A stretch of 13,562 nt of DNA from a virus. Taxonomy: Duplodnaviria > Heunggongvirae > Uroviricota > Caudoviricetes. The stretch lies in IMG/VR virus record IMGVR_UViG_2585427753_000009. One strand, written 5' to 3'. Shown here in pieces: positions 1 to 13,562 of this stretch. The notes below the pieces were generated by a model. It was not told the origin of the DNA. It worked only from the letters and a program-made list of their open reading frames with translations, and searched no databases. Position numbers and translations under genes: made by a program. How positions within the stretch are numbered: position 1 is the stretch's first letter; each line of letters starts with the position of its first letter.

Positions 1-429
1 CTTTTGGGGAACCAGGATAGGCAAGCGGAAACGCCAGCGGCATGGCCAGAGCAGGGGAACACCGGCGGGTGTCAGCATATCGGCAAGTATGTGGCTCAAA
101 TAACCCAGCACCATACCCTGCAACGCATCAGCCGGAATGAACCAGCTTTCAGGAACCTTAAGGTAAAAGGTTGCCAGCAGCGCAAATACCGCCAGCAGAC
201 TGTGGGTAAAACCACGATGCCCAAAAGCGCGGGCGATCGGTTTTGATATCCACTTTAATCGCTGCCCAAGAAACGACTTTGGGTGATCGATGTCCGGTAA
301 CAAACACGTCAGGATTGCGGAAGGGACAATATGCCACCAGTCACCCTGTGCCAGCACGGGCGTCAGCTCGGCATTTTTGGCAAATACCGCACAAGCAATA
401 GAAAAGAGAAGGTGACCTTCCGCCGTCAT
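1..429 (-). CDS. ydjM: SOS-regulated inner membrane protein YdjM-like (5' part only; gene continues past window start)
   Basis: Minus-strand frame from ATG (complement of 427-429) translates MTAEGHLLFSIACAVFAKNAELTPVLAQGDWWHIVPSAILTCLLPDIDHPKSFLGQRL..., hydrophobic throughout and matching my recollection of E. coli YdjM. A LexA box sits immediately upstream. The + strand ORF 4-246 is antisense to it. Confidence 0.7.
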   Translation of the reverse strand, partial: MTAEGHLLFSIACAVFAKNAELTPVLAQGDWWHIVPSAILTCLLPDIDHPKSFLGQRLKWISKPIARAFGHRGFTHSLLAVFALLATFYLKVPESWFIPADALQGMVLGYLSHILADMLTPAGVPLLWPCRWRFRLPILVPQK

Positions 430-443
430 GATAAAACTCACTA

Positions 444-463: not shown

Positions 464-644
464 TAGGGTTTTTATACAGTGCACGGAAGTGGTGACGGTG
501 TAACTCTTTCTCTTAAATTGGCGATTAATCCGTCAGTTGAATGCAAATTCAGATAAAGAACCAGGGTGATGCGCCGCGCGATAAATGCACTCTATCTTGT
601 GCGATAAATGGCATCCACGCGGCGTTTCATTATTTGAAAAAGAA

Positions 645-1217
645 TTACATTTCAGGTCGCGTTATGACAGTCCCAACAGGGTGGTAGCGGTAGATCGTTG
701 ACAGTCCAATATCATAGATAATTGCCAGCCGCTTTCTGTCATACCCTTTCTGGAGCAATCTTGCGATCTGCTCATGCTGCTCCTTCGTCAGTTTCGGGCG
801 ACGTCCTCCAACTCTCCCTTGTGCTCGCGCAGCAGCCAGTCCTGCCAGCGTGCGCTCAACTATCAGTTCACGCTCCATTTCTGCCAGTGCACCCATCATA
901 TGAAAAAAGAACCTTCCCATCGGAGTGCTGGTATCGATTGAATCCGTCAGACTGCGAAAATTGACACCTTTTGCGCGTAGCTCTTCTGTGAGAGCAATGA
1001 GGTGTTTCATTCTTCTACCCAACCGATCCAGCTTCCAGACCACCAATGTATCCCCTCTTTTAAGGCACTTTAAAGCGCGTTTCAGGCCTGGTCGTTCCGA
1101 CTTGGTTCCGCTCATTTTGTCCTCAAAAATCTGTTCACATCCTGCGCACATTAATGCATTGCGTTGCAAATCTGTGTTTTGGTCATTTGTTGACACACGT
1201 ATGTAGCCAATCAGCAT
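645..1217 (-). CDS. Serine DNA invertase (Hin/Gin/Pin/Cin family), copy 1
   Basis: Translation MLIGYIRVSTNDQNTDLQRNAL...VVWKLDRLGRRMKHL...GRRPKLTKEQHEQIARLLQKGYDRKRLAIIYDIGLSTIYRY has the N-terminal catalytic serine motif (YIRVSTNDQ) and a C-terminal helix-turn-helix like Hin/Gin. The ORF-track start at 1346 is a read-through extension; the real start is ATG at 1217, preceded by AAGGGAG with 7-nt spacing. Confidence 0.9.
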   Translation of the reverse strand: MLIGYIRVSTNDQNTDLQRNALMCAGCEQIFEDKMSGTKSERPGLKRALKCLKRGDTLVVWKLDRLGRRMKHLIALTEELRAKGVNFRSLTDSIDTSTPMGRFFFHMMGALAEMERELIVERTLAGLAAARAQGRVGGRRPKLTKEQHEQIARLLQKGYDRKRLAIIYDIGLSTIYRYHPVGTVITRPEM

Positions 1218-1271
1218 TAAAAATACTCCCTTTTGAGTGGTTAAAGTACTGAGATAATGTGGGGAGGATTT

Positions 1272-1297
1272 GAGAGATAAACGTTGGTTTGGGGGAA
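1272..1297 (+). other. Candidate hix/gix-like crossover site A (core AAACGTTGGTTT at 1279-1290)
   Basis: AAAC-N4-GTTT core resembling the hix/gix AAACC-NN-GGTTT pattern, about 60 bp upstream of invertase copy 1 and at the exact start of the sequence shared by all three fiber cassettes. The same core recurs in inverted orientation at 2894-2905 and 3366-3377. Confidence 0.55.
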
Positions 1298-1452
1298 GGC
1301 TCTGCATTGCCTGTTGGTGTACCGGTTCCGTGGCCCACCGCCACACCGCCAGAAGGCTGGTTAAAGTGCGACGGGCGCGCCTTTACAAAAGAACAATATC
1401 CTGTTCTGGCCAGAGCCTACCCGACCCTCCGTCTTCCCGATTTACGCGGTGA
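1279..1452 (+). repeat. 174-bp inverted repeat, arm A (perfect match to complement of 3204-3377)
   Basis: By-eye comparison: 1279-1452 equals the reverse complement of 3204-3377 with no mismatch; the first mismatch is at 1453 versus 3203. Encodes the conserved N-terminal 'collar' part of the cassettes. Confidence 0.8.
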
Positions 1453-1801
1453 GTTTATCCGTGGATGGGACGACGGGCGCAAAGTTGATACAGGACGTAA
1501 GTTGCTGTCCGCACAAGGGGCAACGCTGTTAAGAACAGCAATGCTGGATTATTATAACCAGGACACTACGGGAACCTCGGGGATAGTCGGCATGGGATTC
1601 AACAATGAAGATTCCATTACAGACCTTCGTGAGGGCAGCTTTAAAATGCCGGACGGGACAACATTCAGCGATCCTGTCGTGGCAATGTCAGACAATGGTA
1701 TGCAGGCTACTATTCTGACCTCTATCAGAAGCGGGTATGCGAAGGGTATCACTGTCAGACCCCGTAGCATTGCACTTAATTACATTGTGAGGGCAGTTTA
1801 A
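1289..1801 (+). CDS. Tail fiber C-terminal variable cassette A (no start codon; frame open from 1274)
   Basis: Translation (NVGL)GEGSALPVGVPVPWPTATPPEGWLKCDG...PDLRGEFIRGWDDGR...NYIVRAV: the conserved junction segment shared by P2 H, Mu S and P1 S fibers plus a tail-collar-like motif. The only in-frame start is TTG; an in-frame stop lies at 1271-1273, so it needs fusion to an upstream constant region. Its stop overlaps the start of the downstream tfa (TAATG). Confidence 0.8.
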   Translation: MGEGSALPVGVPVPWPTATPPEGWLKCDGRAFTKEQYPVLARAYPTLRLPDLRGEFIRGWDDGRKVDTGRKLLSAQGATLLRTAMLDYYNQDTTGTSGIVGMGFNNEDSITDLREGSFKMPDGTTFSDPVVAMSDNGMQATILTSIRSGYAKGITVRPRSIALNYIVRAV

Positions 1802-2415
1802 TGAGTAACACTGCAGTTCTGGATGAAAACGGTATCGCCACTGTAGCGGGCGATATCACTGTATATCACTATGACGAGGAAACCCGGGAATACACCTCAT
1901 CCTCTGTGGAGTATCTCGCCCTTGGGGTGGGTACTCCGGCACATTCGTGCGCCGATGCACCGCCGGAGGCAATTTCGGGTTACGTGGTTTGCCGGACTGC
2001 CACGCTGAACGGGTGGGAGCATGTGCCTGATCACCGCGGCGAGACGGTATACAGCACGGAGAACGGTAACCCTGTTCTGATTACCCAACCGGGTGATTAC
2101 CCGGCGGACACCACCACAAAACAGCCAGCCACGCCATGGGATACCTGGAACGGTGAGGCGTGGGTAACCGATACTGAACGGCAGCGAGCCGCAGAACTGG
2201 AGGTTGCCAGACAGCAACGCCAGCAACGGGTGAAACAGGCGATGGCGTCCGTCGATCTTATCAACCTCAAACTGCGTGCTGGTCGCAGTCTGACACCAGA
2301 AGAAACGGCAAAACTGAACGCCGTGCTGGATTATATCGACGAGCTGAACGCACTGGATATCAGCACGGCACCTGAAATCAGCTGGCCGGAAGCGCCACTG
2401 GCACTTGCCAGTTGA
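1801..2415 (+). CDS. Tail fiber assembly protein (Tfa; Mu U / P2 G family)
   Basis: 204 aa with VYHYDEETREY, HRGETVYSTENG, WNGEAWVTD and C-terminal APEISWPEAP motifs typical of caudoviral Tfa chaperones. Translationally coupled to cassette A. Confidence 0.85.
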   Translation: MSNTAVLDENGIATVAGDITVYHYDEETREYTSSSVEYLALGVGTPAHSCADAPPEAISGYVVCRTATLNGWEHVPDHRGETVYSTENGNPVLITQPGDYPADTTTKQPATPWDTWNGEAWVTDTERQRAAELEVARQQRQQRVKQAMASVDLINLKLRAGRSLTPEETAKLNAVLDYIDELNALDISTAPEISWPEAPLALAS

Positions 2416-2421
2416 ACGGTA

Positions 2422-2895
2422 TCACGCCGCCCTCACGATATAGTTAAACGCGATATTGCGGGGGCGGGTTATGTTAAAGAATGCTCCGTTTAATTCGGCT
2501 TTTGCGCGACTGTTTGTTCCACCCAGTATTGCGTACCACAAATAATCGCTACGGTAATTCCCCGCAAACACCTTATCGCCGCCATAGTCAATATTATTTC
2601 CGTTACTCATGTACGAGATATCAAGCGCAGAATCGTTATCGTCATGACCGCCGACCAGTGTACCTTTCTGCCATGAAAGCAACTTACGCCCCTCGTCAAT
2701 CTTGCGCCCGTCGTCCCATCCACGGATAAACTCACCGCGTAAATCGGGAAGACGGAGGGTCGGGTAGACTCTGGCCAGAACAGGATATTGTTCTTTGGTG
2801 AACGTAGCTCCGTTGCACTGTAACCAGCCTGCTGGCGGTGTGGCGGTGGGCCATGGAACCGGTACACCAACAGGCAATGCAGAGCCTTCCCCCAA
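2422..2895 (-). CDS. Tail fiber C-terminal variable cassette B (no start codon)
   Basis: GEGSALPVGVPVPWPTATPPAGWLQCNG...PDLRGEFIRGWDDGRKIDEG...NYIVRAA: same conserved N-terminal segment, divergent C-terminal domain. Begins at crossover site B, converges on tfa with a 6-nt gap, and has no tfa of its own. Confidence 0.75.
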   Translation of the reverse strand: MGEGSALPVGVPVPWPTATPPAGWLQCNGATFTKEQYPVLARVYPTLRLPDLRGEFIRGWDDGRKIDEGRKLLSWQKGTLVGGHDDNDSALDISYMSNGNNIDYGGDKVFAGNYRSDYLWYAILGGTNSRAKAELNGAFFNITRPRNIAFNYIVRAA

Positions 2896-2905
2896 ACCAA
2901 CGTTT
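2690..2905 (-). repeat. Cassette B copy of the conserved junction repeat (imperfect, mosaic relative to A and C)
   Basis: Reverse complement matches arm A for the first ~50 nt from the AAACGTTGG core, then diverges and matches again near GATTTACGCGGTGAGTTTATCCGTGGATGGGACGACGGGCGC. Confidence 0.6.
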
Positions 2906-2912
2906 TTATGCC
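2887..2912 (-). other. Candidate crossover site B (core at 2894-2905)
   Basis: Reverse complement AAACGTTGGTTTGGGGGAAGG. The stop codon of cassette C (2906-2908) sits inside this site, so cassettes C and B are in tandem. Confidence 0.5.
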
Positions 2913-3424
2913 GCCCTTACGATATAATTAAAGGCAATATTACGAGGACGGTTTTCATTAGCTGTTGGCACGACACGAGAGGCGTCGAATCCAAGGTCAT
3001 CGGTTTTGTCTATAGTAGTTGTGTTATTCGGCATTCTCGCTGATCGTGTTCCTGCATCGTAAAAAGCCCCTCTGATTGCATCAAAAGACATACCGATCCC
3101 GCCATCTGCGAATCCCTCAATATTTCTTATTGCATCCCCCTGTGAAGATAATAATTGTCGCCCGGCATCCACACCACGTCCGTCATCCCAGCCACGAATA
3201 AATTCACCGCGTAAATCGGGAAGACGGAGGGTCGGGTAGGCTCTGGCCAGAACAGGATATTGTTCTTTTGTAAAGGCGCGCCCGTCGCACTTTAACCAGC
3301 CTTCTGGCGGTGTGGCGGTGGGCCACGGAACCGGTACACCAACAGGCAATGCAGAGCCTTCCCCCAAACCAACGTTTTCGTTTTTATCCCTACCTATACC
3401 AACTCTGTATTTTTCACGAAACAA
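2906..3424 (-). CDS. Tail fiber C-terminal variable cassette C (no ATG; conserved part begins at about 3385)
   Basis: ...KNENVGLGEGSALPVGVPVPWPTATPPEGWLKCDGRAFTKEQYPVLARAYPTLRLPDLRGEFIRGWDDGRGVDAG...NYIVRAA. Its first ~57 codons are identical at DNA level to cassette A (inverted), then it diverges. The ORF-track start is a TTG within the invertase-2 upstream region. Confidence 0.75.
   Translation of the reverse strand: MFREKYRVGIGRDKNENVGLGEGSALPVGVPVPWPTATPPEGWLKCDGRAFTKEQYPVLARAYPTLRLPDLRGEFIRGWDDGRGVDAGRQLLSSQGDAIRNIEGFADGGIGMSFDAIRGAFYDAGTRSARMPNNTTTIDKTDDLGFDASRVVPTANENRPRNIAFNYIVRAA
3204..3377 (-). repeat. 174-bp inverted repeat, arm C (perfect match to complement of 1279-1452)
   Basis: See arm A. 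Confidence 0.8.
3359..3384 (-). other. Candidate crossover site C (core at 3366-3377)
   Basis: Reverse complement CGAAAACGTTGGTTTGGGGGAAGG, about 55 bp upstream of invertase copy 2; mirrors the site A / invertase 1 arrangement. Confidence 0.55.
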
Positions 3425-3438
3425 AGAGGATGTTTTTT

Positions 3439-4038
3439 ATGCAAATTGGCTATATTCGTGTGTCAACAAACGACCAGAACACGGATTTACAACGCAATGC
3501 ACTGAACTGCGCAGGATGTGAACTGATTTTTGAAGATAAAATCAGCGGAACGAAATCAACCAGACCGGGATTGAAAAAACTGCTCAGAACGCTATCAGAA
3601 GGAGATACGCTGGTTGTCTGGAAGCTGGACAGACTGGGCAGAAGTATGAAACACCTGATCACGCTTATTGAGGAATTGCGGGAAAAAGGTGTTAATTTCC
3701 GTAGTCTGACGGACAGCATTGACACGTCAACACCCATGGGGCGTTTCTTTTTTCACGTCATGGGGGCTTTAGCCGAAATGGAACGTGAATTAATTGTAGA
3801 GCGTACACTGGCCGGGCTGGCAGCAGCACGCGCACAAGGACGCATTGGCGGACGTCGCCCGAAGTTGACAAAAGAACAACACGAGCAAATAGCGAGGCTG
3901 ATTAAAAACGGTCATGACAGGAAACAACTGGCGATCATTTACGACATCGGCATATCGACGATTTATCGTTATCACCCTGTAGGCGATATACAGGCTGAAG
4001 AAACAACCAGACAGACTCAGGAAAATGAAAACCGCTAA
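3439..4038 (+). CDS. Serine DNA invertase (Hin/Gin/Pin/Cin family), copy 2
   Basis: MQIGYIRVSTNDQNTDLQRNALNCAGCELIFEDK...GRRPKLTKEQHEQIARLIKNGHDRKQLAIIYDIGISTIYRY. Start ATG at 3439 follows AGAGGA with 8-nt spacing; the ORF-track start at 3310 is a read-through extension. Closely similar to copy 1 but with a distinct, longer C-terminal tail. Confidence 0.9.
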   Translation: MQIGYIRVSTNDQNTDLQRNALNCAGCELIFEDKISGTKSTRPGLKKLLRTLSEGDTLVVWKLDRLGRSMKHLITLIEELREKGVNFRSLTDSIDTSTPMGRFFFHVMGALAEMERELIVERTLAGLAAARAQGRIGGRRPKLTKEQHEQIARLIKNGHDRKQLAIIYDIGISTIYRYHPVGDIQAEETTRQTQENENR

Positions 4039-4057
4039 TCTGACCATTAGCGGTTTT
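4031..4057. terminator. Bidirectional intrinsic terminator between convergent invertase 2 and gene U
   Basis: Perfect 9-bp stem ACCGCTAAT / ATTAGCGGT with 6-nt loop, followed by TTTT on the + strand and by a T-rich tract on the - strand. Confidence 0.5.
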
Positions 4058-4064
4058 GCGTTAA

Positions 4065-4559
4065 TCAAAACAGCCCTTTAACGGAGCTGGCCGCGCTGTT
4101 AAGAGATGATGTCACTTTATCTTTGAAGCCGGACAGCATATCGCTGAACGATGAGGATTGCAGGCGCTCCCGCAAATCCTCATCACAGCGTTCAAGAGTC
4201 AGTGAAAATTCTATCTTTTTCGCCTTACCATAGCGATCAAACTCGGAACGGGTCGTATTCGTTTCAGTCAGTACATACATGCCGTAAATCTGCCCGACAC
4301 CATCAATCAGAGGCCAGGGGCGTCCTGTATATGCCTGCGTGGTCAGCAACGAAAGCGACACTTCGCCACCTGTAATTTCAGGATAAAGCACGCCGGAAAG
4401 CACAATGCGATCATCACCTGCGCCGATATACTGCCAGCCTGCTGAACGGTTAACGCGTTCATTTTTCACATGCCGCCAGCTTTTGTTTTGCTGTAACTGC
4501 TGATGCGGCAGCGTGCGCAGCTCAAAAACAAACATGCCGTAGATCATCATCATGGCCAT
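4065..4559 (-). CDS. P2 gpU-like tail protein
   Basis: MAMMMIYGMFVFELRTLPHQQ...GVLYPEITGG...RPWPLIDGVGQIYGMYVL resembles P2 gpU as I recall it, and the gene sits directly after the tape measure gene. The true start is probably the third ATG (4553), which has proper GAGGAG spacing. Confidence 0.7.
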   Translation of the reverse strand: MAMMMIYGMFVFELRTLPHQQLQQNKSWRHVKNERVNRSAGWQYIGAGDDRIVLSGVLYPEITGGEVSLSLLTTQAYTGRPWPLIDGVGQIYGMYVLTETNTTRSEFDRYGKAKKIEFSLTLERCDEDLRERLQSSSFSDMLSGFKDKVTSSLNSAASSVKGLF

Positions 4560-4565
4560 GACTCC

Positions 4566-7382
4566 TCAATCTTTATCGTAAAAACTGCCACGCCCGGCAC
4601 GGGCGCGCCGTTCCATTTCTGCCCTAACCATTTCACCGACCAGTTTCGCCAGTTCGCGGGGATTCTGTGTAACAATGTTATGCAGATGAACATGAATTTC
4701 ACCGCCAAATCCGGAGGCAACAGGCTCCCGGTTACGGGAAGTTGCAGGAGCTGATGCCACTGGCGATCGTATGGCCTCCGCCACCGGGCGGGAGCTGGCC
4801 GCAACAACAGGGACCAGCGCCGGAGGCAGCGGAGCCGGAACCACGGGTGTGATATTAATTGCGGGGGCAGGCTTACTGACCTGCGCAATCTTCCGCTCCT
4901 GCCACTCCCCACGAACAGCAAGTGCGCGGGGCAGGTTCTTAAAGACAATATCGCCGGGGCCAATGCGTTTTTTCGTCTCATCAACCAGCTTACCTGTGTT
5001 ATCAGCAATTTTGCTGAGTCTGCGCAGCGTCCCGGTATTGCTGTCTGTGAGCGGTTTGTTGTCTTTGGGTTTATCACCTCCGGTGCCATTGCCATTTTCC
5101 ACAGGCTTCGGCGGATTGATTTTCGCCAGGTCCCCCTGAAGTAAGGCAACCTTGTCCTGAAGAATGGCCGCACGCTGTGCGTCTTCGATTTTCTTGCGCG
5201 CCCTTTCCGCTTCATCCGGAAGGACGCCAAGTTTTTCAAGTATCCACGCCAGCGTATCCAGTAGCATTTTTGCAGGTGTCAGAACAAGTTGTAACGCACC
5301 GCCAAGAACGTTACCGAATATCTCGCCAGCACTGGTACATTTATCCAGCGTTTCCTTGCTGGACTCCATCGGTGACAACAGCGATTTAAACCAGTTAAAC
5401 ACCTGGCTGATCCCGCTTCCGATTGCGTCAAAAACAGGACCAAACCGTTCAAAGGTTTCGCGCAACGGGGTCAGCCTTTCCATAATCCCGCTGAACACCC
5501 CGGCAAAAAATGCCCTGATGGGATCCCAGTATTTCCAGATGAGAACGGCAGCTCCGGCAAGCGCAGCCACGATAAGACCGACCGGACTGAACAACGCCCC
5601 GATAGCGCCCCCCAGTAACGAAACGGAACCCGTCACCATTCCCCATAGTGCTGGCAGGAGTCTGACAGCATTCATTGAACCGGTCAGGAGGGAAAAGCCA
5701 AGACGCAGTTTTGCCAGCGGGCCAGCAAGCACACCAATAGCCAGCGACAACGAGCCAACCGTTGCAGTCATTGCCAGCAACGCACCGCCTGCTATCAGTA
5801 GCTGGCGCGTCAGTACCGGATGGGCCTGCGCCAGCGAGGTGATTTTTTCAAGCACCCGCGTGAGCCACTGCGTGACAGAACGCAGCGGACCGTCAACCAG
5901 ATCACTGATGCGAATACGAAGACCTTCCCATGCGCTGTCGAGATTTTTCAGGTCCCCATCAAGATTATCGGCCATTACTTTTGCGACGCGATCGGCCTCT
6001 CCCCTTGCCCCCTGCAATTCTCTGGTCAGTTTTTGCAGCTCTCCTGAACCAGCCGCAGCAACAAGCGTCTGCAAACCAACGAACGCCTCTTCTCCGGCGA
6101 TGTCCTTGAAGAAGGAAACCTGGTCCACCTGTCCGTATTTTTGTGTCGCCTTATAGAGATCAAGCAGCACATCCTCCATCGGGCGCATTTTGCCTCTGGC
6201 GTCAGCAACTGACACCCCCAGCTCTTTCAGCGCATCAGCCGCAGCTTTTGGCGGTGATGCAAGGCGGGACAGACTTGCGCGCATGGCCGTACCAGCATCG
6301 CTTCCACGAAGACCATTATTGGCAAGCATCCCGGCCATGGCCGCCGCTTCTTCAAGACTGATACCAAGTTTTGCGGCAACCGGACCGGTATACTTCATGG
6401 TTTCGCCCAGCGCGCGTAAATCAGTATTGGTCCGGGTGAATGCCGCTGTCAGCGTATCGCCAACCCGGTCCATTTGATCGGCTGTCAGGTTGAACTGTGT
6501 GAGGATATTGGAGCCTATATCCGCCGTCTCGCCGAGTTCGACGCCACCTGCCAGCGCCATATTAAGAACACCGGGCAATGCGGCCTGAATGGCCTGCGGA
6601 GTAAAACCAGCCATTGCCAGAAAGCTCTGCCCACTGGCGGCATCACTCGCAGTAAACTGTGTTTCAGAGCCAAGTTTTAACGCCTGCTCACGCAGCGCCT
6701 TAAACTGCGGGCTGTTTTTGTCGATTCGCGTCAGTGCCTGAACGCGGGACATCTCTTTGCCGAACCCGATCGCAGGCTGCAAAAAACGCCCGGCAGCATA
6801 GCCGCCCGCCGCTGCCGCACCAATTGCCAGCGCACCACCTGTTTTCAGTTTTCCCGCGGTTTCCTGCGCGCGCGAATACCGCTCACGCGCCCGCGTTACA
6901 CGCGCAAGCGCCTGCCGTTCGCGTTCAAGCTGGTTGTTGTACTGTTCGGTGCGTCTGATGGCCTGCTGGATGGTGTTATCGCTGCCTGTCAGGGAAATGC
7001 CGTGGCGTTTCAGCTCTCCGCCAAGCTCCCGCATTTTCTGAATTTCCCGTGTGCGCGATTCATTCAGGCGTTCAAGCCGGGTGCTTAACTGCTGCATCAG
7101 CTTTTGTTGTTTTTCGCTGAGCACTGTACCCGTGCGTTGTAACTGATTAAGGGCGTTAAGCTGGCGTCGTGCTTTCACGATACCCGCATCCGCTTTACTG
7201 ACAGCGTCGCGGGCGCGCTCAAATGATCGCGCCTGACGCTCGAGATTTTTGATCGCCCCCTGCGTTCGCTGGATGGAGTCACCAAACTGCCCCATCAGGC
7301 GGCGGGCGTTTTCGGCAGGCCGGGTCAGCCTGTCAACGGCGCTGAAAGCGACCCGGATATCAAGAGTCTTCATTGTCTGCAT
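4566..7382 (-). CDS. Tail tape measure protein (P2 gpT-like)
   Basis: 938-aa ORF with long coiled-coil-type N-terminal region, central Gly/Ala-rich hydrophobic stretches and a Pro/Ala-rich C-terminal part, lying between the E/E' chaperone and U. Internal ORFs on both strands are alternate-frame artefacts. Confidence 0.85.
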   Translation of the reverse strand: MQTMKTLDIRVAFSAVDRLTRPAENARRLMGQFGDSIQRTQGAIKNLERQARSFERARDAVSKADAGIVKARRQLNALNQLQRTGTVLSEKQQKLMQQLSTRLERLNESRTREIQKMRELGGELKRHGISLTGSDNTIQQAIRRTEQYNNQLERERQALARVTRARERYSRAQETAGKLKTGGALAIGAAAAGGYAAGRFLQPAIGFGKEMSRVQALTRIDKNSPQFKALREQALKLGSETQFTASDAASGQSFLAMAGFTPQAIQAALPGVLNMALAGGVELGETADIGSNILTQFNLTADQMDRVGDTLTAAFTRTNTDLRALGETMKYTGPVAAKLGISLEEAAAMAGMLANNGLRGSDAGTAMRASLSRLASPPKAAADALKELGVSVADARGKMRPMEDVLLDLYKATQKYGQVDQVSFFKDIAGEEAFVGLQTLVAAAGSGELQKLTRELQGARGEADRVAKVMADNLDGDLKNLDSAWEGLRIRISDLVDGPLRSVTQWLTRVLEKITSLAQAHPVLTRQLLIAGGALLAMTATVGSLSLAIGVLAGPLAKLRLGFSLLTGSMNAVRLLPALWGMVTGSVSLLGGAIGALFSPVGLIVAALAGAAVLIWKYWDPIRAFFAGVFSGIMERLTPLRETFERFGPVFDAIGSGISQVFNWFKSLLSPMESSKETLDKCTSAGEIFGNVLGGALQLVLTPAKMLLDTLAWILEKLGVLPDEAERARKKIEDAQRAAILQDKVALLQGDLAKINPPKPVENGNGTGGDKPKDNKPLTDSNTGTLRRLSKIADNTGKLVDETKKRIGPGDIVFKNLPRALAVRGEWQERKIAQVSKPAPAINITPVVPAPLPPALVPVVAASSRPVAEAIRSPVASAPATSRNREPVASGFGGEIHVHLHNIVTQNPRELAKLVGEMVRAEMERRARAGRGSFYDKD

Positions 7383-7628
7383 TCCCGCTGCGAAGTGCCG
7401 CCCGCTCGCGCCAGCTAACCACTTCGCCGGGCGTCATCATGAAGATTTCGGCGGGCGACCAGTTAAAAATGGCGGCAATATCCGCCACCAGATCTTCGAT
7501 GTGCTCAAAGCACACCAGGGTGATTACGCTGCCGTCTCCTGCACGCTCTTCGCGCCAGAGTCTGGCTCGCTCATAAAATTTACAGCCACAGCGCACAACC
7601 GAATAAAATCGCGTGACGACATTTTTTT
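7360..7628 (-). CDS. E' extension: -1 frame continuation of E, predicted to be made as an E+E' fusion by frameshift
   Basis: The -1 frame opens at the A7 run (minus-strand TTAAAAAAATG, + coordinates 7621-7630) where a TAA in that frame overlaps the run, stays open to 7360 and overlaps the tape measure start. This is the arrangement of P2 E/E' and lambda G/GT. Confidence 0.5.
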
Positions 7629-7898
7629 AATCATCACTTCATCCAGTCGTGGCGAGGTCACGCGAGGCAACAGCGTGAACATGGTATCCGCTTTCAGATT
7701 CAGCACATCAGACAGCGACAGACCACGCAGGGATCCCGCCTGCTCAATAGCCCCGGTGATCTCCACATATGTGATTTTTTCGCCACCACGCTCAATTGGC
7801 CGGGAAAGTTTTACACCACGTTCGACAGCCATATCCTCACCTGCCGTCACATCATCCGCTACGGTGTTATTCCGGGTTTCAGTATCGATATCTTTCAT
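7524..7898 (-). CDS. Tail assembly chaperone (P2 gpE-like)
   Basis: 124-aa ORF immediately upstream of the tape measure gene, with a strong RBS (AAGGAG, 7-nt spacer) and an A7 slippery run in its 3' part. Confidence 0.65.
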   Translation of the reverse strand: MKDIDTETRNNTVADDVTAGEDMAVERGVKLSRPIERGGEKITYVEITGAIEQAGSLRGLSLSDVLNLKADTMFTLLPRVTSPRLDEVMIKKMSSRDFIRLCAVAVNFMSEPDSGAKSVQETAA

Positions 7899-7953
7899 CA
7901 GTTGTCTCCTTTTCAGTCAGAGGCGACGCACTGCGCCGCCTGCATATTACTTA

Positions 7954-8466
7954 TCAGCCAAGCCCAAGCGCGGAACGAATGCGGTCAGGCACAATGTCCT
8001 TGCCGTCCTTCCGGTAGATGTGGTTCAACAGGTCGATTTCCAACAGCGGGCGATCGTTAACGCTCAGCTTGTAGTAGGTGTTTTTGACAGCGTAAGTGTG
8101 TGATGTGGCTTCGCCCTGTTTGGCCTCCCCCATATCAATTTCCGTCACACGCCCGCGCATCTCGATTTCATACAGATCGCTTTCTGCATCGGTGTAGTAT
8201 TCACCCGCAAAACGCAGCAGCGTGCCGTCAATCGTGCCGCCATATTTAAGGAACAGCGCACGAACAGCTCCCCCCATAACAAAACTCGCATCAAGCGCGG
8301 AGTCGTCCAGACCGAGATCAATACTTACCGCCCCCATCATGCCACCACCACGATAGCTGTCGGTTTTGCGCGTCAGTTTGGGCGGCGTGACGGACGTCAC
8401 CTTACCCACTTCGTTTTCACCATCCACAAACAGCGTAAAAAAGCGAAGATGTTTTGGTACAGCCAT
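7954..8466 (-). CDS. Tail tube protein (P2 FII-like)
   Basis: 170 aa with KVTSVTPPKLTRKTDSYRGGGMMGAVSIDLGLDD, matching the P2 FII tube motif as I recall it (KLTRK...YRGxGM...DLGLDD). Start overlaps the sheath stop (ATGA). Confidence 0.85.
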   Translation of the reverse strand: MAVPKHLRFFTLFVDGENEVGKVTSVTPPKLTRKTDSYRGGGMMGAVSIDLGLDDSALDASFVMGGAVRALFLKYGGTIDGTLLRFAGEYYTDAESDLYEIEMRGRVTEIDMGEAKQGEATSHTYAVKNTYYKLSVNDRPLLEIDLLNHIYRKDGKDIVPDRIRSALGLG

Positions 8467-9650
8467 CAGGCACCTCCCAGCACCGCAAATGCGGGACCAA
8501 AGAATTCATCAGTAAACGACTGGTAAAGCTCCATGTCTTCCAGCGGGGGAACAGGCGTATATTTGTAGCGAATACGCACGCGCCCCTGACGTAAATTCGT
8601 GGTGCCGTTATCCACCACGTCATACCAGCACGACGCCCCAATCAGTTTCCCGGCAGTAACCAGTGAATCCAGTTTTGCCCTGATGGCACTGATAACATCT
8701 TTCACGTTCGCAGGCGTCAGTGGACTGTCGATGGTTTCAAACTGCGCTTCCGCAATTGAATCAGCCAGCACCTGTGCGGTTCGGGTATACACCTCAAAGA
8801 TGTAGGCGTTCGTTTCCGGTGTGCGGTTGCCCCAGAAGCGGAACCCGTTGCGACGAATAATGGTCGTGATTTCTTTGTTGTTGAGGCTATTGGCATCGCT
8901 GTCTTCGGCCTGCAACGACCAGAACACATGCCTGGACATCCCCAGCACATTTTTAACCGGAACGTTGGACAGTGATTTGTGCCATCCCTGCTCATGGTCA
9001 ATGTACGCACGAAGGCCGCACGCATAGGCAGGCGCGGGGAACGTTTCGTTTTTGCCACTTTTCGGGTTGTAGGCGATGAAGTCCGGCCATAAGAGCATCA
9101 CCTCACGTTCGTTGAATTTCTGGCGGTAGGTAATCGCCTCAGCCATCGTGTTACAGCCGTGACATGAGGCATACACAAACGCGCGCAGTTTACCCGCAAT
9201 CACGCACAGGGATTTTGTCACCGCCTCCGTGTCCAGCTCCGGCGCGGCCAGAATACGCGGACGGTATCCGATGCTTTCATCCTGCTCTGCAACAAGCAGC
9301 GCATACATCCCCGTATAGCTGCCGTCAGATTCAGAACCACCGATAACCAGTTGATCCTGCGTCTTTCCGTCTTCTTCTTTGTGTTCAGCCACGCGAACGA
9401 CGATCACCTTTGTGCTCACCTGGTCTGCGATGGCCTTAAGCGCACGATAAAGCGTCCCCGTTGTCCCGCATTTTCCCAGCACGTCATTGACGCGGGTCAG
9501 CAGTGTGGGCTTGTTCAGCGGGAACAGCTTCGCGTCCGCATCATCCGCCGTTGCCACGATACCGATAACGCTGGAATCAACATCGTTAATCGCTGTTACC
9601 AGGTCGGTATTTTCCGTAACACGGGCACCATGAAAACGAGTTTCACTCAT
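8466..9650 (-). CDS. Contractile tail sheath protein (P2 FI-like)
   Basis: 394 aa with FPLNKP, KLRAFVYASCHGC, LLWPDF, GWHKSLSNV, LIRRNGFRFWGNRT, YTRTAQVLAD and YTPVPPLED motifs characteristic of the P2 FI sheath family. Confidence 0.88.
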   Translation of the reverse strand: MSETRFHGARVTENTDLVTAINDVDSSVIGIVATADDADAKLFPLNKPTLLTRVNDVLGKCGTTGTLYRALKAIADQVSTKVIVVRVAEHKEEDGKTQDQLVIGGSESDGSYTGMYALLVAEQDESIGYRPRILAAPELDTEAVTKSLCVIAGKLRAFVYASCHGCNTMAEAITYRQKFNEREVMLLWPDFIAYNPKSGKNETFPAPAYACGLRAYIDHEQGWHKSLSNVPVKNVLGMSRHVFWSLQAEDSDANSLNNKEITTIIRRNGFRFWGNRTPETNAYIFEVYTRTAQVLADSIAEAQFETIDSPLTPANVKDVISAIRAKLDSLVTAGKLIGASCWYDVVDNGTTNLRQGRVRIRYKYTPVPPLEDMELYQSFTDEFFGPAFAVLGGA

Positions 9651-9807
9651 AGCTTTAGCCCCTTGTATCCGTTAAATGATTCGGCAACAATCATCACCCA
9701 CCACGCGCGTAATCTCACCCCTGTGCCGTTCTCCCGATCCGGCGACAACAAAAAGCAGTAACCCCCTCCGCACGCACATGCGACCATGCCGCACAGGGAG
9801 GGAACAG

Positions 9808-10917
9808 ATGACCGATACCACCATGCAATTGCTCAGTCAGGGCACAGACCCCGTGAAAATGCCGGATTTTGATATTCTCGCGGAGGGTAAAACGCTGTCA
9901 GGCGTGGCAGAGCGCCTGATGAGCCTGTCACTGACCGACAACCGGGGATTTGACGCGGACCAGCTCACCATCACGCTGGATGATGCGGATTGTCAGTTGC
10001 AGCTACCGCCACGGGGCGCGCGCCTGACGGTTCTCATTGGCTGGAAAGGAGAACCGCTGACAGAAAAAGGCACTTACATTGTTGATGAAATCGCTCACGA
10101 AGGACCGCCGGACAGGCTGACTGTTTCAGCCAGAAGCGCAGATTTTCGGGATGAATTTAACGTTAAACGTGAGGTGTCCTGGCATGATGTGACCGTTGAG
10201 CGTGTGGTATCCGCCATCGCTCATCGGTATGGTCTGAAACCGCAAATCAGCGAAATGCTGATGGATATCGAAATCGACCACGCCGACCAGACCGAAGAAA
10301 GCGACATGTCCTTCCTTACGCGCATGGCGGAAATGCTGGGCGCAATCACCACGGTAAAAAGCGGTAATCTGTTATTCATTATGCCAGGCGGTGGCGTGAA
10401 CGCACAGGGCCAGCCGTTGCCATCGTTCGCCATCACGCGCAGCAGTGGCGATCGCCATCAGTTCCGCATTGCTGACCGCGAAGCGTATACGGGGGTACGC
10501 GCTTACTGGCTTGATCTTAATTACGGGAAAAAGAAAAAAGTCAGCGTGAAACACCGCAAACCGCCAAAACCCAAAAAGGAGAAAAGCAGCAGCCGTGAAG
10601 GTGATTATATGGAAGGCGCGGAAGGCAATGTGTTTGTGTTACGCAAGACTTATCAGAACGAGCAGGCAGCAAGACGCGCAGCGGCGGCAAAGTGGCAGCA
10701 GCTACAACGCGGAGCCGCATCATTCTCCATCACGCTGGCATGTGGTCGTGCAGAACTCTACCCCGAAATGCATGGCACGGTAACAGGATTTAAAAGCGAG
10801 ATTGATAATCAGGACTGGATTATTGCAAAAGCCGAGCACACCATCGATAACAGCGGCTTTACCACGCAGCTTGAGCTTGAGGCAAAAATCTCGGAATGGA
10901 TAGCAGAAACAGAGTGA
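9808..10917 (+). CDS. P2 gpD-like tail protein (late control gene D family)
   Basis: Start at ATG 9808 after AGGGAGG. N-terminus LSLTDNRGFDADQLTITLDD...RGARLTVLIGWKGEPLTEKGTYIVDEI matches the gpD-family pattern; sits immediately upstream of the Ogr-like gene as in P2. Contains an unusual Lys-rich low-complexity insert. Confidence 0.72.
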   Translation: MTDTTMQLLSQGTDPVKMPDFDILAEGKTLSGVAERLMSLSLTDNRGFDADQLTITLDDADCQLQLPPRGARLTVLIGWKGEPLTEKGTYIVDEIAHEGPPDRLTVSARSADFRDEFNVKREVSWHDVTVERVVSAIAHRYGLKPQISEMLMDIEIDHADQTEESDMSFLTRMAEMLGAITTVKSGNLLFIMPGGGVNAQGQPLPSFAITRSSGDRHQFRIADREAYTGVRAYWLDLNYGKKKKVSVKHRKPPKPKKEKSSSREGDYMEGAEGNVFVLRKTYQNEQAARRAAAAKWQQLQRGAASFSITLACGRAELYPEMHGTVTGFKSEIDNQDWIIAKAEHTIDNSGFTTQLELEAKISEWIAETE

Positions 10918-10959
10918 GCAACTTAGAATAGCAGCAGCACCACGTTAAGGGAGGTCGCT

Positions 10960-11220
10960 ATGTTCCGTTGTCCGCTTTGTGGCGCATCTGCCCGTATCCG
11001 CACCAGTCGTCCGGAAAATGATTCAAACACCGTGCGGCAAAAGTATTACCAGTGTAACAACCTGGAATGCGGCGTATGCTTCTCAACACTGGAAGCTTTC
11101 CATAAATTCACATCAAAACACACCTCCGGCGTTCACTCTTCAGAAGGTATCCCGTGGCATGAGCTGCCAGCTTCACACAGGGGAAACAATCAGATGAGTT
11201 TGCCTTTACCTCAGAATTAA
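10960..11220 (+). CDS. ogr: Ogr/Delta-family zinc-finger late transcription activator
   Basis: MFRCPLCGASARIRTSRPENDSNTVRQKYYQCNNLECGVCFSTLEAFHKF... has the Cys-x2-Cys ... Cys-x4-Cys zinc finger and the MF-CPLC / RTSR / Y-QC-N signature of P2 Ogr. Strong RBS AAGGGAGG. Confidence 0.85.
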   Translation: MFRCPLCGASARIRTSRPENDSNTVRQKYYQCNNLECGVCFSTLEAFHKFTSKHTSGVHSSEGIPWHELPASHRGNNQMSLPLPQN

Positions 11221-11411
11221 CAGGCAGAATTGCCGGAGTAACAAAAAAGCGATAGATTACGCGCGGGTGCCTTTCGGCTGATGGTCGGAGGGAATACCCG
11301 AAGGCCAGATGTGGAAAGGCCCCGGAAAACATTTCTGTTTAACCGAGGCCCTAACATATCTACCTTAAGCAAGTGATAGGTTAGCGCCTCTCCAACAAAG
11401 GAGCAAGCGCT

Positions 11412-11552
11412 ATGTCGCAAAAATCGCTTACGGCCATCACATTCTGCGTGACGGTAATCCTCATCATCTGGATGCTACACGGTTCGCTGTGTGAAATACG
11501 GATGAGCTTCTGGGGAGCGGAGTTTGCGGCGTTCTTACAGTGTAAGCAGTAA
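11412..11552 (+). CDS. Hok-family type I toxin (46 aa); not in the ORF track because it is under 60 aa
   Basis: MSQKSLTAITFCVTVILIIWMLHGSLCEIRMSFWGAEFAAFLQCKQ: N-terminal transmembrane helix, the Hok hallmark S-L-C-E-[IL]-R motif and a conserved C-terminal AAFLxCK, closest to HokA as I recall it. AAGGAG RBS with 8-nt spacing; long structured leader upstream; hairpin and terminator downstream. Confidence 0.7.
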   Translation: MSQKSLTAITFCVTVILIIWMLHGSLCEIRMSFWGAEFAAFLQCKQ

Positions 11553-11640
11553 GGAAACCGCGACGGGGGAGCAATCCCCCGTCAATCGGTTGCTAAGGTT
11601 GGCTGAAGTGGCACCCTATCTCACAGACATGAACAACAAA

Positions 11641-11672
11641 CCCGCAGCGTAAGAACTGCGGGTTTTCTTTTT
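11641..11672. terminator. Intrinsic terminator after the hok-like gene (probably bidirectional, also serving the small minus-strand ORF)
   Basis: CCCGCAG-(8 nt loop)-CTGCGGG followed by TTTTCTTTTT on the + strand; the complement is followed by TTTGTTGTT. A second perfect 9-bp hairpin (GACGGGGGA...TCCCCCGTC) lies at about 11569-11590, reminiscent of the hok mRNA 3' fold-back element. Confidence 0.6.
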
Positions 11673-11740
11673 GGAACTATCACTAGCTAGTGTACCGTTA
11701 ACGGCACATAATGCTCGCACAACAAACCTGTTAAAAGAGA

Positions 11741-12559: not shown

Positions 12560-12646
12560 ATGGTACCCGGAGCGGGACTTGAACCCGCACAGCGCGAACG
12601 CCGAGGGATTTTAAATCCCTTGTGTCTACCGATTCCACCATCCGGG
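12560..12646 (-). tRNA. leuZ: tRNA-Leu (anticodon UAA)
   Basis: Reverse complement reads GCCCGGATGGTGGAATCGGTAGACACAAGGGATTTAAAATCCC...GGGTTCAAGTCCCGCTCCGGGTACCA: 87 nt, long variable arm, encoded CCA. Confidence 0.93.
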
Positions 12647-12658
12647 CTCGGGAAGAAA

Positions 12659-12732
12659 GTGGAGGCGCGTTCCGGAGTCGAACCGGACTAGACGGATTTG
12701 CAATCCGCTACATAACCGCTTTGTTAACGCGC
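12659..12732 (-). tRNA. cysT: tRNA-Cys (anticodon GCA)
   Basis: Reverse complement GGCGCGTTAACAAAGCGGTTATGTAGCGGATTGCAAATCCGTCTAGTCCGGTTCGACTCCGGAACGCGCCTCCA, 74 nt. Confidence 0.93.
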
Positions 12733-12786
12733 CAAATTCTTCAGGCCTTTCAGCCAGACATCCGCTGCCGCCGATGTCTTTTAAAC

Positions 12787-12862
<76 letters not shown>

Positions 12863-13013
12863 ATTCATCAAGCAATCAGTTAATCACTTGATTTTATTAT
12901 CGTCTGGCAATCAGTGCCGCCGTTCGATGCGTTGCATTCTACTTACCTGGCGCGATGAGTCAACGATATTTTTCACCACTTTTGATCGTTTGCTGAAAAT
13001 TGCGCCGAAACGA

Positions 13014-13562
13014 TCACTGATCAAGCAAATCTGCACGCGCAGCGCTCAAATATTGCAACATTGACCACAGAGTCAGTACCGCAGCCACAAAGAAAAGTGC
13101 AATACCGGCGTACTCAACCCAAATGTTCGGACGCCACAGCAGCCAGGCTAACGCCACCATCTGGGCAGTGGTTTTCACTTTCCCAATCCAGGAGACAGCC
13201 ACGCTACTGCGTTTACCCAACTCCGCCATCCATTCGCGTAGCGCAGAAATAATAATTTCACGGGCGATCATCGTTGCTGCCGGTAAGGTCACCCACCAGC
13301 TGTGGTAATGCTCGGTTACCAGCACCATGGCGATAGCCACGAGAACTTTATCTGCGACAGGGTCAAGGAAAGCACCAAACCGGGTACTCTGATTCCAGCG
13401 GCGTGCCAGAAAACCATCGAACCAGTCAGTCACCGCCGCGACGCAGAAAATGAGCGCGGCGGCAAACGGCGACCAGGTGACAGGCAAATAAAAGACCAAT
13501 ACAAAGAATGGGATAAGGATGACACGGAACAGTGTAAGCAACGTAGGGATATTAAATTGCAT
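13014..13562 (-). CDS. pgsA: CDP-diacylglycerol--glycerol-3-phosphate 3-phosphatidyltransferase (phosphatidylglycerophosphate synthase)
   Basis: Complete 182-aa [75 protein letters not shown]..., with the CDP-alcohol phosphatidyltransferase motif D-x2-DG-x2-AR; matches E. coli PgsA as I recall it, in the expected position next to glyW-cysT-leuZ. Confidence 0.95.

What the first reader, a model, noticed from the sequence alone, without database searches (positions are those of the whole stretch)
1272..3384. Three crossover-type sites and a 174-bp perfect inverted repeat
The core AAACGTTGGTTT occurs at 1279-1290 (plus) and, inverted, at 2894-2905 and 3366-3377, each at the exact start of a cassette. 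Arms A (1279-1452) and C (3204-3377) are identical over 174 bp by my base-by-base comparison, while the cassette B copy is mosaic. Perfect identity over that length, next to diverged flanks, suggests recent inversion or gene conversion; the repeat is also long enough for RecA-dependent recombination independent of the invertases. Sites B and C are direct repeats, so their recombination would delete cassette C; invertases normally disfavour that.
Basis: seen in the sequence. Interest (0 to 1): 0.6.

Follow-up and report, generated by a model that had tools for sequence, protein, structure and literature searches.

The report
Headless invertible phage tail-fibre cassette array
The three sites and the long perfect repeat are real, but they are an ordinary, already described phage device that flips DNA to swap tail-fibre tips; the only unusual thing is that this copy has lost the fibre gene it should serve and sits between two invertase genes from two different prophages, which is either a chromosome-rearrangement scar or a draft-assembly error.

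Summary
Observation confirmed. AAACGTTGGTTT occurs at 1279-1290 (+) and inverted at 2894-2905 and 3366-3377. Arms 1279-1452 and 3204-3377 are identical over 174 bp, and the middle copy is mosaic.

The sites are the cores of three 26-bp Pin/Gin-type crossover sites (TTCCCCCAAACC-AA-CGTTT...). Site A is letter for letter a site published for E. coli EC958 prophage Phi2. Each site opens a promoterless C-terminal tail-fibre cassette, and the long repeat encodes the shared Phage Tail Collar domain. A three-repeat version of this module was shown by PCR to flip in EPEC.

The 174-bp identity is not a recent local event. All of 1279-4100 is 100% identical to intact P88-like (P2-family) prophages in three other strains. 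Other relatives have different perfect arm pairs (204 and 213 bp), so patchy conversion among arms is a family trait.

What is unusual is the context. No constant fibre gene adjoins the array. The left flank is the end of a Mu-like transposable prophage next to ydjM. The right flank is a P88-like prophage at leuZ/pgsA. ydjM is flipped relative to K-12, which implies a ~180-kb inversion. One complete genome (strain 4/0) has the same architecture plus the reciprocal junction. However, the window is the start of a draft contig, so an assembly chimera is about equally likely.

The parts
1..428 (-). 5' part of host gene ydjM. Host DNA runs to 566.
   Evidence: 1-566 is 100% identical to B2-group E. 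coli. ydjM is (+) in K-12 but (-) here relative to pgsA.
567..644 (.). Terminal sequence of a Mu-like transposable prophage (begins TGATGCGCC...).
   Evidence: In other genomes homology starts at 563-567, next to many different host genes (irp2, ydiV, dgcQ, gspL and others). The head genes of the same prophage type are Mu-like.
645..1217 (-). Invertase 1 (190 aa), a small serine recombinase transcribed away from the array.
   Evidence: Resolvase plus HTH_7 domains; 74.7% identical to Gin, 75.5% to PinE and 84.7% to invertase 2.
1272..1297 (-). Crossover site A, TTCCCCCAAACC-AA-CGTTTATCTCTC (outer half of the invertase-1 type).
   Evidence: Identical to EC958 Phi2_3prime, GAGAGATAAACGTTGGTTTGGGGGAA.
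1279..1452 (+). Arm A, 174 bp, perfect inverted repeat of 3204-3377. It encodes the start of the cassette and its Collar domain.
1289..1801 (+). Cassette Sv1 (170 codons). It has no constant N-terminal part, and an in-frame TGA lies at 1271-1273.
1801..2415 (+). Tail-fibre assembly chaperone that accompanies Sv1.
   Evidence: (Caudo_TAP).
2422..2905 (-). Cassette Sv2, including its mosaic arm (2732-2905).
2887..2912 (+). Crossover site B, TTCCCCCAAACC-AA-CGTTTTTATGCC (internal type), in direct orientation with C.
2906..3377 (-). Cassette Sv3, including arm C (3204-3377).
3359..3384 (+). Crossover site C, TTCCCCCAAACC-AA-CGTTTTCGTTTT (outer half of the invertase-2 type).
3439..4038 (+). Invertase 2 (199 aa), a small serine recombinase of the P88-like prophage, transcribed away from the array.
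   Evidence: 82.1% identical to PinE. Same position as in intact P88-like prophages.
4065..11674 (.). Right-hand part of a P88-like (P2-family) prophage: U, T, E, FII and FI on (-), then D, ogr and hok on (+).
12561..13562 (-). Host leuZ-cysT-glyW tRNA genes and pgsA (the attachment region of the P88-like prophage).

Best explanation
The region 1272-3384 is a Din-family (Pin/Gin/Cin/Hin-type) multiple-inversion tail-fibre cassette array.

Anatomy. Three 26-bp crossover sites share the inner half-site TTCCCCCAAACC and the core AA. Each marks the 5' end of a promoterless C-terminal receptor-binding cassette (Sv1 plus its chaperone, Sv2, Sv3).

Mechanism. A small serine invertase, activated by a Fis-bound enhancer inside its own gene, pairs site A with B (1.6-kb flip) or with C (2.1-kb flip) and exchanges strands at the AA core. 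In an intact phage this fuses a different cassette in frame to the constant part of the fibre gene. B x C (direct repeats) is disfavoured.

The 174-bp repeat. It is the coding sequence of the Collar domain common to all cassettes. Its perfection is an allele inherited with this P88-type array. The allele was produced earlier in the lineage by patchy conversion or homologous exchange between arms, not by the invertase.

The context. In this contig the array is headless, so no isoform can make a fibre. One side carries the end and invertase of a Mu-like transposable prophage inserted upstream of ydjM. The other side carries the invertase and tail genes of a P88-like prophage at leuZ. I lean slightly towards this being a real recombinant between the two prophages' homologous arrays, which would invert about 180 kb of chromosome. 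An assembly chimera is almost as likely.

What is shown: the sites, arms, domains, flank origins, isoforms in other genomes and the 4/0 reciprocal junction. What is inferred: activity of this copy, Fis dependence, and the reality and mechanism of the hybrid join.
For: Sites: one search shows the same 12+2+12 layout and AA core as the e14 site next to pinE (TTCTCCCAAACC-AA-CGTTTATGAAAA) and the same layout as Mu gix. Site A is identical to the published, active EC958 Phi2 site.

Enzymes: Resolvase plus HTH_7 domains, 73-82% identical to Gin and PinE.

Cassettes: a Collar domain at aa 10-57 of each, and a Caudo_TAP chaperone.

Activity of the module type: all four isoforms expected from A x B and A x C flips occur among genomes carrying the same Mu-like array. 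A three-repeat module in an EPEC P2-like prophage showed 2.2-kb and 1.8-kb inversions with four variants confirmed by PCR; E2348/69 carries an invertase-2 flank 98.9% identical to the window's and a three-site array.

Inheritance of the perfect repeat: 1279-4100 is 100% identical to L025, L027 and L028.

Family-wide arm mosaicism: the Sv1 arm exists in at least 3 variants, the Sv2 arm in 2, and other loci have perfect pairs of 204 and 213 bp.

Hybrid context: the flank origins are shown. ydjM is (+) and pgsA (-) in K-12, but both are (-) here. Strain 4/0 has invertase 2 - array - invertase 1 next to aroA and, about 45 kb away, the reciprocal P88 fibre head - cassettes - Mu-like fibre head junction. 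U13A shows the uninverted P88-like prophage at serS.
Against: No experiment or read-level data exist for this strain, so activity of this copy is inferred from relatives.

The enhancer was not located. A simple Fis-motif scan found one conserved match at +71 in all four genes, but no partner at the 47-bp spacing described for hin.

For the hybrid being real: the window is the first 13.6 kb of a 2014 draft contig. The two prophage types can share at least 794 bp of identical sequence (L026 identical at 981-2072, L025 at 1279-4100), which is the situation in which assemblers mis-join. Only 1 of 5,426 complete genomes shows this architecture, and none has the ydjM junction.
Confidence: 0.85

Rival explanations
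1. The two-invertase, headless arrangement is an assembly chimera. The strain carries an intact Mu-like prophage at ydjM and an intact P88-like prophage at leuZ, each with its own near-identical array. The short-read assembler walked in from the invertase-1 flank and out at the invertase-2 flank. The sites and arms themselves would still be real.
For: The window is positions 1-13,562 of draft contig JORF01000015.1, GCA_000713045.1. Only 1.28 kb of unique sequence lies left of the repeat. The candidate parents are identical to the window, and hence to each other, over 1279-2072. Real examples are rare: 1 in 5,426.
Against: Sister assemblies of the same batch break their contigs at these repeats instead of joining across them (L032 is 3.3 kb, L033 is 2.0 kb). 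An unbroken 130-kb contig therefore suggests there was no competing path. The same architecture exists in a complete genome together with its reciprocal junction.
Confidence: 0.45
2. The hybrid is real and was made by an invertase. One of the two Din invertases recombined a crossover site of the Mu-like array with an oppositely oriented site of the P88-like array. This inverted the ~180 kb between them, moved a whole cassette set from one phage to the other, and is potentially reversible.
For: All sites of both prophage types share the same inner half-site and AA core, and even the same fibre-gene-side outer half, GGTAATTGAGGA. In the window everything right of core A is of the P88 haplotype. 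In strain 4/0 the array joined to the invertase-1 flank is of the P88 haplotype: 2 mismatches to DA33135 against 16 to a typical Mu-like array. Heterologous action of invertases in trans was already inferred for EC958 Phi4, whose own invertase gene is truncated.
Against: The exchange point cannot be placed. Mu-like prophages identical to the window through 2072 exist, so any point from 1279 to 2072 fits. In 4/0 the interval is about 277 bp wide. Invertasome assembly needs both sites and the enhancer on one supercoiled domain; action over 45-180 kb of chromosome is untested.
Confidence: 0.2
3. The hybrid is real and was made by RecA-dependent homologous recombination between the two ~2-kb, ~99% identical arrays while they lay in inverted orientation. 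This is the usual route to prophage-mediated chromosomal inversions.
For: The arrays of the two prophage types are 99-100% identical over 1.6-2.1 kb. Array haplotypes are shuffled between the two phage types, including within one double lysogen (EC190759). Inversions by homologous recombination between prophages are established (review PMC6379469).
Against: Nothing positive distinguishes it from the invertase route. An apparent switch inside the chaperone gene (2189-2249) disappeared once better-matching relatives were found.
Confidence: 0.25

Closest known systems
Invertible tail-fibre segment of prophage Phi2 in E. coli EC958 (Forde et al. 2014, PMC4134206)
   Same: Its invertase-proximal 26-bp crossover site, GAGAGATAAACGTTGGTTTGGGGGAA, is identical to window site A. 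The site lies in a long repeat (227 bp), and the cassettes have Collar domains. Both orientations were seen in PacBio reads.
   Different: EC958 Phi2 was described with two sites, a 96% identical repeat and an intact constant fibre gene. The window has three sites, a 100% identical 174-bp repeat, no constant gene and a second invertase.
Three-repeat invertible module in a P2-like prophage of EPEC E2348/69 (Goldberg et al. 2014, PMC4272514)
   Same: It has three partly homologous repeats and two nested inversions (about 2.2 and 1.8 kb, against 2.1 and 1.6 kb here), with four variants confirmed by PCR. E2348/69 carries an invertase-2 flank 98.9% identical to the window's and a three-site array.
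   Different: The EPEC module is joined to its fibre gene and has one invertase. Its cassette bodies differ.
e14 P segment with pinE, and Mu G segment with gin (the classical Din systems)
   Same: A 26-bp site with 12-bp half-sites and a 2-bp core. The AA core and the AAACC-AA-CGTTT centre are the same as e14. The invertases are 73-82% identical. Both swap C-terminal fibre parts.
   Different: The classical systems have two sites and short repeats (34 bp in Mu, from my own knowledge). Here there are three sites and arms of 174-231 bp.
Min system of plasmid p15B (a Din multiple-inversion system with six crossover sites; recalled from Sandmeier, Iida and Arber, not checked here)
   Same: A Din invertase acts on more than two sites and shuffles several fibre cassettes.
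   Different: The number and arrangement of sites differ, and p15B is a P1-like plasmid prophage. No sequence comparison was made here.
Strain 4/0 (NZ_CP023849.1) two-invertase junction
   Same: Invertase 2 - cassettes - invertase 1 with the same flanks (99.4%), and an array of the P88 haplotype.
   Different: It lies between serS and aroA (a ~45-kb inversion) and is in another isoform. It is a complete genome in which the reciprocal junction is visible.
R64 shufflon
   Same: It works alike: several sites shuffle alternative C-terminal ends of one adhesin-type protein.
   Different: R64 uses a tyrosine recombinase (Rci) and 19-bp sfx sites. The recombinases here are serine enzymes, so this array is not a member.

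Membership tests
Din-family DNA inversion system (Hin/Gin/Cin/Pin) | A small serine recombinase with an N-terminal resolvase catalytic domain and a C-terminal HTH, closely related to Gin/Pin | tested here: met
   both proteins match Resolvase (E about 1e-51) and HTH_7; 73-82% identity to Mu Gin and e14 PinE, and the N-terminal YIRVSTNDQ motif with the catalytic serine is conserved.
Din-family DNA inversion system (Hin/Gin/Cin/Pin) | 26-bp crossover sites made of two imperfectly symmetric 12-bp half-sites around a 2-bp core that is identical in all partner sites | tested here: met
   A, B and C are TTCCCCCAAACC-AA-CGTTT... with an AA core. The e14 and Mu sites were extracted the same way; site A equals a published site.
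Din-family DNA inversion system (Hin/Gin/Cin/Pin) | Partner sites in inverted orientation bounding the invertible DNA | tested here: met
   A is inverted relative to B and C. B and C are direct.
Din-family DNA inversion system (Hin/Gin/Cin/Pin) | A Fis-dependent recombinational enhancer in cis, inside the 5' part of the invertase gene | tested here: inconclusive
   the first 150 nt of both genes align closely with gin and pinE, and one Fis-consensus match at +71 is conserved in all four. No second match was found at the 47-bp spacing described for hin. There is no functional test.
Din-family DNA inversion system (Hin/Gin/Cin/Pin) | Inversion fuses alternative C-terminal cassettes in frame to a constant 5' part of a tail-fibre gene | tested here: not met
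   In this window neither outer flank is a fibre gene, and an in-frame TGA lies at 1271-1273. The feature is met in the intact relatives L002, L005, L013 and L014-L028.
Din-family DNA inversion system (Hin/Gin/Cin/Pin) | Both orientations demonstrable in a population | not testable with these tools
   No reads are available for this isolate. Indirect evidence: all four isoforms occur among genomes, and there is PCR or PacBio evidence in EPEC and EC958.
R64-type shufflon | A tyrosine recombinase (Rci) acting on 19-bp sfx repeats | tested here: not met
   both recombinases are serine resolvase-type. The sites are of the 26-bp Din type.
Mu-like transposable prophage (origin of the left flank) | Insertion at many unrelated chromosomal positions, a TG terminus and a Mu-type head/tail gene set | tested here: met
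   the same end plus invertase 1 lies next to irp2 (interrupted), ydiV, dgcQ, gspL and others; the end reads TGATGCG.... DUF935, Gp37, DUF3486 and Mu-order baseplate genes are present.
P88-like P2-family prophage (origin of the right flank) | The order H - array - invertase - (U, T, E, FII, FI inverted) - D - ogr, integrated at a tRNA or serS site | tested here: met
   the order is the same in DA33135, Ceylon31 (at leuZ) and U13A. Phage P88 itself matches at 80% over the invertase/U region.

The most novel reading that the evidence does not exclude
The crossover sites of two unrelated resident prophages (Mu-like and P2-like) form one distributed shufflon. Either invertase can recombine a site in one prophage with a site in the other. 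This would flip tens to hundreds of kb of chromosome reversibly, hand a complete host-range cassette set from one phage family to the other in a single step, and disable both prophages while the inversion stands. The window and strain 4/0 would be two independent captures of that state.
Probability: 0.15. Interest if true: 0.6.

Novelty: new member of a known kind. Interest (0 to 1): 0.3.

Why it matters
As a three-site invertible tail-fibre array it adds nothing new. The site sequence, the module type and its flipping are all published.

If the headless two-invertase arrangement is real, it matters in three modest ways. First, it would be a concrete intermediate showing how unrelated phage families (Mu-like, P2-like and apparently ~93-kb plasmids) come to share identical receptor-binding cassettes. 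Second, it would be an example of prophage arrays acting as portable homology or recombination sites that invert large chromosome segments and strand both prophages. Third, it is a caution for annotation and assembly: such arrays are exactly where short-read assemblies can swap flanks.

Tried and rejected
(1) Locating the exchange point by SNPs. Against DA33135 (P88-like) and p11A (Mu-like) the window looked like a single crossover inside the chaperone gene, at 2189-2249. I rejected this after finding P88-like prophages 100% identical over 1279-4100.

(2) I then inferred an exchange exactly at site A, because the commonest Mu-like haplotype first differs at 1330. I rejected this too, because Mu-like prophage L026 is identical to the window over 981-2072. 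The interval stays at 1279-2072.

(3) I searched all 5,426 complete E. coli genomes for the source genome or a sister. None carries the whole window or the ydjM/Mu-like junction.

(4) Exact-protein look-ups identified the source contig, but they cannot list the other contigs of that assembly. The reciprocal junction could therefore not be sought.

(5) A promoter and terminator scan of 1150-3500 gave nothing above chance.

(6) A Fis-motif scan for the enhancer was inconclusive.

(7) A simple deletion between the two prophages is rejected. The relative orientation of ydjM and pgsA is flipped compared with K-12, and the ~180 kb between them could hardly be lost.

(8) Membership of the R64-type shufflon family is rejected on recombinase class.

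(9) cix and hix were not extracted from sequence. Only gix and the e14 sites were compared directly.
Full report
1. OBSERVATION

The 12-mer AAACGTTGGTTT is at 1279-1290 (+), and its reverse complement is at 2894-2905 and 3366-3377, with no other copies. The 19-nt extended core occurs three times against none in 200 shuffles. The stretch 1279-1452 and the reverse complement of 3204-3377 are identical at all 174 positions. Identity begins exactly at the core, and the flanks outside are unrelated. The middle copy has 13 mismatches to A, confined to 1330-1416. It is identical to A at 1279-1329 and at 1417-1482, including the stretch where C has already diverged. The description 'mosaic' is accurate.

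2. WHAT THE PARTS ARE

ORFs and Pfam give the following parts:
- Invertase 1: 645-1217 (-), 190 aa, Resolvase plus HTH_7.
- Cassette Sv1: 1289-1801 (+), with its tail-fibre assembly chaperone at 1801-2415 (+).
- Cassette Sv2: 2422-2895 (-).
- Cassette Sv3: 2906-3367 (-).
- Invertase 2: 3439-4038 (+), 199 aa, Resolvase plus HTH_7.

Each cassette carries a Phage Tail Collar domain at residues 10-57, which is exactly what the long repeat encodes. The two invertases are 84.7% identical to each other and 73-82% identical to Mu Gin and e14 PinE.

I extracted 26-bp windows in the same way from this window, from Mu and from e14:
- A = TTCCCCCAAACC-AA-CGTTTATCTCTC
- B = TTCCCCCAAACC-AA-CGTTTTTATGCC
- C = TTCCCCCAAACC-AA-CGTTTTCGTTTT
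- e14 site next to pinE = TTCTCCCAAACC-AA-CGTTTATGAAAA
- Mu gix = TTCCTGTAAACC-GA-GGTTTTGGATAA

These are Din-type crossover sites with a common AA core. A is inverted relative to B and C.

Site A is letter for letter the 'Phi2_3prime' crossover site tabulated for E. coli EC958. There it lies in a 227-bp, 96% identical repeat bounding a 2,067-bp segment that PacBio reads caught in both orientations (PMC4134206). A three-repeat module in a P2-like prophage of EPEC E2348/69 was shown by sequencing and PCR to undergo ~2.2-kb and ~1.8-kb inversions with four coexisting variants (PMC4272514). E2348/69 carries an invertase-2 flank 98.9% identical to the window's and a three-site array. The corresponding distances here are 2,099 bp (A x C) and 1,627 bp (A x B).

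3. THE SURROUNDINGS CHANGE THE PICTURE

In intact relatives the array is entered from a constant fibre-gene part through a fourth kind of site (outer half GGTAATTGAGGA). In the window neither side is a fibre gene. An in-frame TGA lies at 1271-1273, and both flanks are invertase genes pointing outwards, each starting 62 bp from its site.

The left flank is host DNA over 1-566: ydjM and its upstream region, 100% identical to B2-group strains. From 567 (TGATGCG...) it is the end of a prophage that in other genomes sits next to irp2 (interrupting it), ydiV, a ybcI-like gene, dgcQ, gspL and others. That prophage has Mu-type head and baseplate genes, so it is a Mu-like transposable prophage. The ST131 preprint calls the corresponding element phiE255-like.

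The right flank (3378-11674) is the invertase, U, T, E, FII, FI, D, ogr and hok of a P88-like P2-family prophage. It is followed by leuZ-cysT-glyW and pgsA. This prophage type occupies that position in Ceylon31 and many other strains.

In K-12, ydjM is (+) at 1.810 Mb, and leuZ and pgsA are (-) at 1.992 Mb. In the window both are (-). A deletion cannot give this arrangement. An inversion of the ~180 kb between an array in a Mu-like prophage upstream of ydjM and an array in the leuZ prophage gives exactly this arrangement (inference).

4. A COMPLETE-GENOME PRECEDENT

I built a composite query from the two outer flanks separated by random filler. It found one genome in 5,426 with both flanks within about 2.7 kb in the window's relative orientation: strain 4/0.

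There the order is U, invertase 2, [Sv3, Sv1, Tfa, Sv2], invertase 1, then aroA and serC in reversed order. About 45 kb further on lies the reciprocal junction: P88-like gene I, the H head with a cassette, then Tfa, a cassette and a Mu-like S head in the opposite direction, followed by the rest of the Mu-like prophage. U13A shows the uninverted P88-like prophage between serS and dmsA.

The array attached to the invertase-1 flank in 4/0 is of the P88 haplotype. It has 2 mismatches to DA33135 against 16 to a typical Mu-like array. Exchange between the arrays of these two prophage types, with inversion of the intervening chromosome, does therefore occur in nature.

5. THE CAVEAT

Exact-protein look-up shows that the window is positions 1-13,562 of a draft contig: JORF01000015.1, 130.7 kb, GCA_000713045.1 (L029 is identical over 1-11,801). 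The two prophage types can be identical over long stretches. P88-like L025, L027 and L028 are identical to the window over 1279-4100. Mu-like L026 is identical over 981-2072. An assembler could therefore have entered the repeat from one prophage and left into the other.

Against that, contigs of sister assemblies from the same batch stop at these repeats rather than crossing them (L032 and L033). This suggests there was no competing path in this genome. I could not inspect the other contigs. I put a real junction at about 0.45-0.5 and a chimera at about 0.45.

If the junction is real, the exchange point lies somewhere in 1279-2072. It cannot be assigned to the core (invertase route) or to the homologous body (RecA route). 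Two earlier placements, inside the chaperone gene and then at site A, both dissolved when closer relatives were found.

6. THE 174-BP PERFECT REPEAT

Strand exchange at the 2-bp core moves an arm together with its cassette, so the invertase cannot make arms alike. Only conversion or homologous crossover inside the arms can.

Across 18 related loci the arms are a patchwork:
- The Sv1 arm occurs in at least three versions, with 0, 3 or 8 differences from the window's.
- The Sv2 arm occurs in two versions, with 13 or 3 differences.
- Other loci have their own perfect pairs: 204 bp inverted in L005 and 213 bp direct in L003.
- Most pairs differ at 3-21 positions.

In this array, however, the identity is inherited. 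The same Sv1 allele (E22, A43) and the same Sv3 are present, 100% identical, in three other assemblies, in other isoforms.

The repeat is long enough for RecA-dependent inversion; that statement rests on general knowledge of homology requirements and was not tested. A B x C event would delete Sv3. The invertasome normally makes inversion the exclusive outcome (PMC3798978). Even so, prophages with exactly the Sv1-Tfa-Sv2 two-site structure exist in both phage types (L015, L017, L019). They could be deletion products or the ancestral form.

7. HOW IT WORKS (BEST ACCOUNT)

The inferred mechanism for the module is as follows. An invertase dimer binds each 26-bp site. Two sites in inverted orientation are brought together with the Fis-bound enhancer inside the invertase gene. 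All four strands are cut at the AA core, one half of the tetramer rotates by 180 degrees, and the ends are rejoined. This flips 1.6 or 2.1 kb. Four isoforms are reachable. In an intact phage each isoform places a different Collar-domain cassette behind the constant fibre part. All four are seen among genomes carrying the Mu-like version.

In the window the machinery is complete and even duplicated, but it has nothing to switch, because every isoform leaves the cassettes unexpressed.

8. NOVELTY AND VERDICT

The finding is real and correctly read as invertase crossover sites, but the thing itself is known. It is a new member of a known kind; the site sequence and the three-site behaviour are published. 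The headless, two-invertase hybrid is rare (1 in 5,426 complete genomes). I did not find this inversion described in the papers I searched, although one preprint already notes a DNA translocation between the homologous fibre regions of P88-like and phiE255-like prophages. It is either an instance of the well-known class of prophage-mediated inversions or an artefact. Interest is 0.3.

Noticed in passing
window 1453-2720; hits H133, H143, H144: The Sv1-Tfa-Sv2 block is 99.7-99.8% identical on ~92-93-kb E. coli plasmids (KY 1497, WCHEC4533, WCHEC96200). I guess these are phage-plasmids, but I did not check. If so, a third element type besides the P2-like and Mu-like prophages carries the same cassettes.
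   Followed up: no
L003 and L035 (E. coli EC190759, both prophages in one genome): In this double lysogen the P88-like array is closer to the strain's own Mu-like array (5 mismatches in 1,661) than to other P88-like arrays (16 mismatches to the window). Both prophages carry the same extra cassette, WP_001702916.1, next to their invertases. This suggests exchange within the genome.
   Followed up: partly
window 446-461 and 566/567: A perfect LexA-box consensus (CTGTCGATACGTACAG) lies just upstream of ydjM. The Mu-like end is inserted about 140 bp upstream of the ydjM start and leaves the box with the gene. Any effect on ydjM regulation is unknown.
   Followed up: no
window 1801-2415 versus 2422-3377: Only Sv1 is followed by a tail-fibre assembly chaperone gene. 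Sv2 and Sv3 have none of their own. In e14 and Mu each alternative fibre end has its own chaperone.
   Followed up: no
L010 28023-29273 (strain 4/0 reciprocal junction): The Mu-like fibre-gene head at the reciprocal junction is annotated as a pseudogene and is several hundred bp shorter than in other Mu-like prophages. The stranded prophage may already be decaying (compared).
   Followed up: no
window 645-1217 (L029 gene-1010): The public gene call for invertase 1 in the source contig is only 121 aa, although the 190-aa frame is open and has the full catalytic domain. This is probably a start-codon choice by the gene caller.
   Followed up: partly
window 4065-10917: The FI-FII-E-T-U tail block is on the opposite strand to D and ogr, unlike the gene order I recall for phage P2. 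The same order is seen in all P88-like relatives examined, so it is normal for this group and not a local rearrangement.
   Followed up: yes
window 1 (contig start inside ydjM): The draft contig begins in the middle of the single-copy gene ydjM, only 566 bp from the prophage end. I found no repeat there that would explain a contig break.
   Followed up: partly
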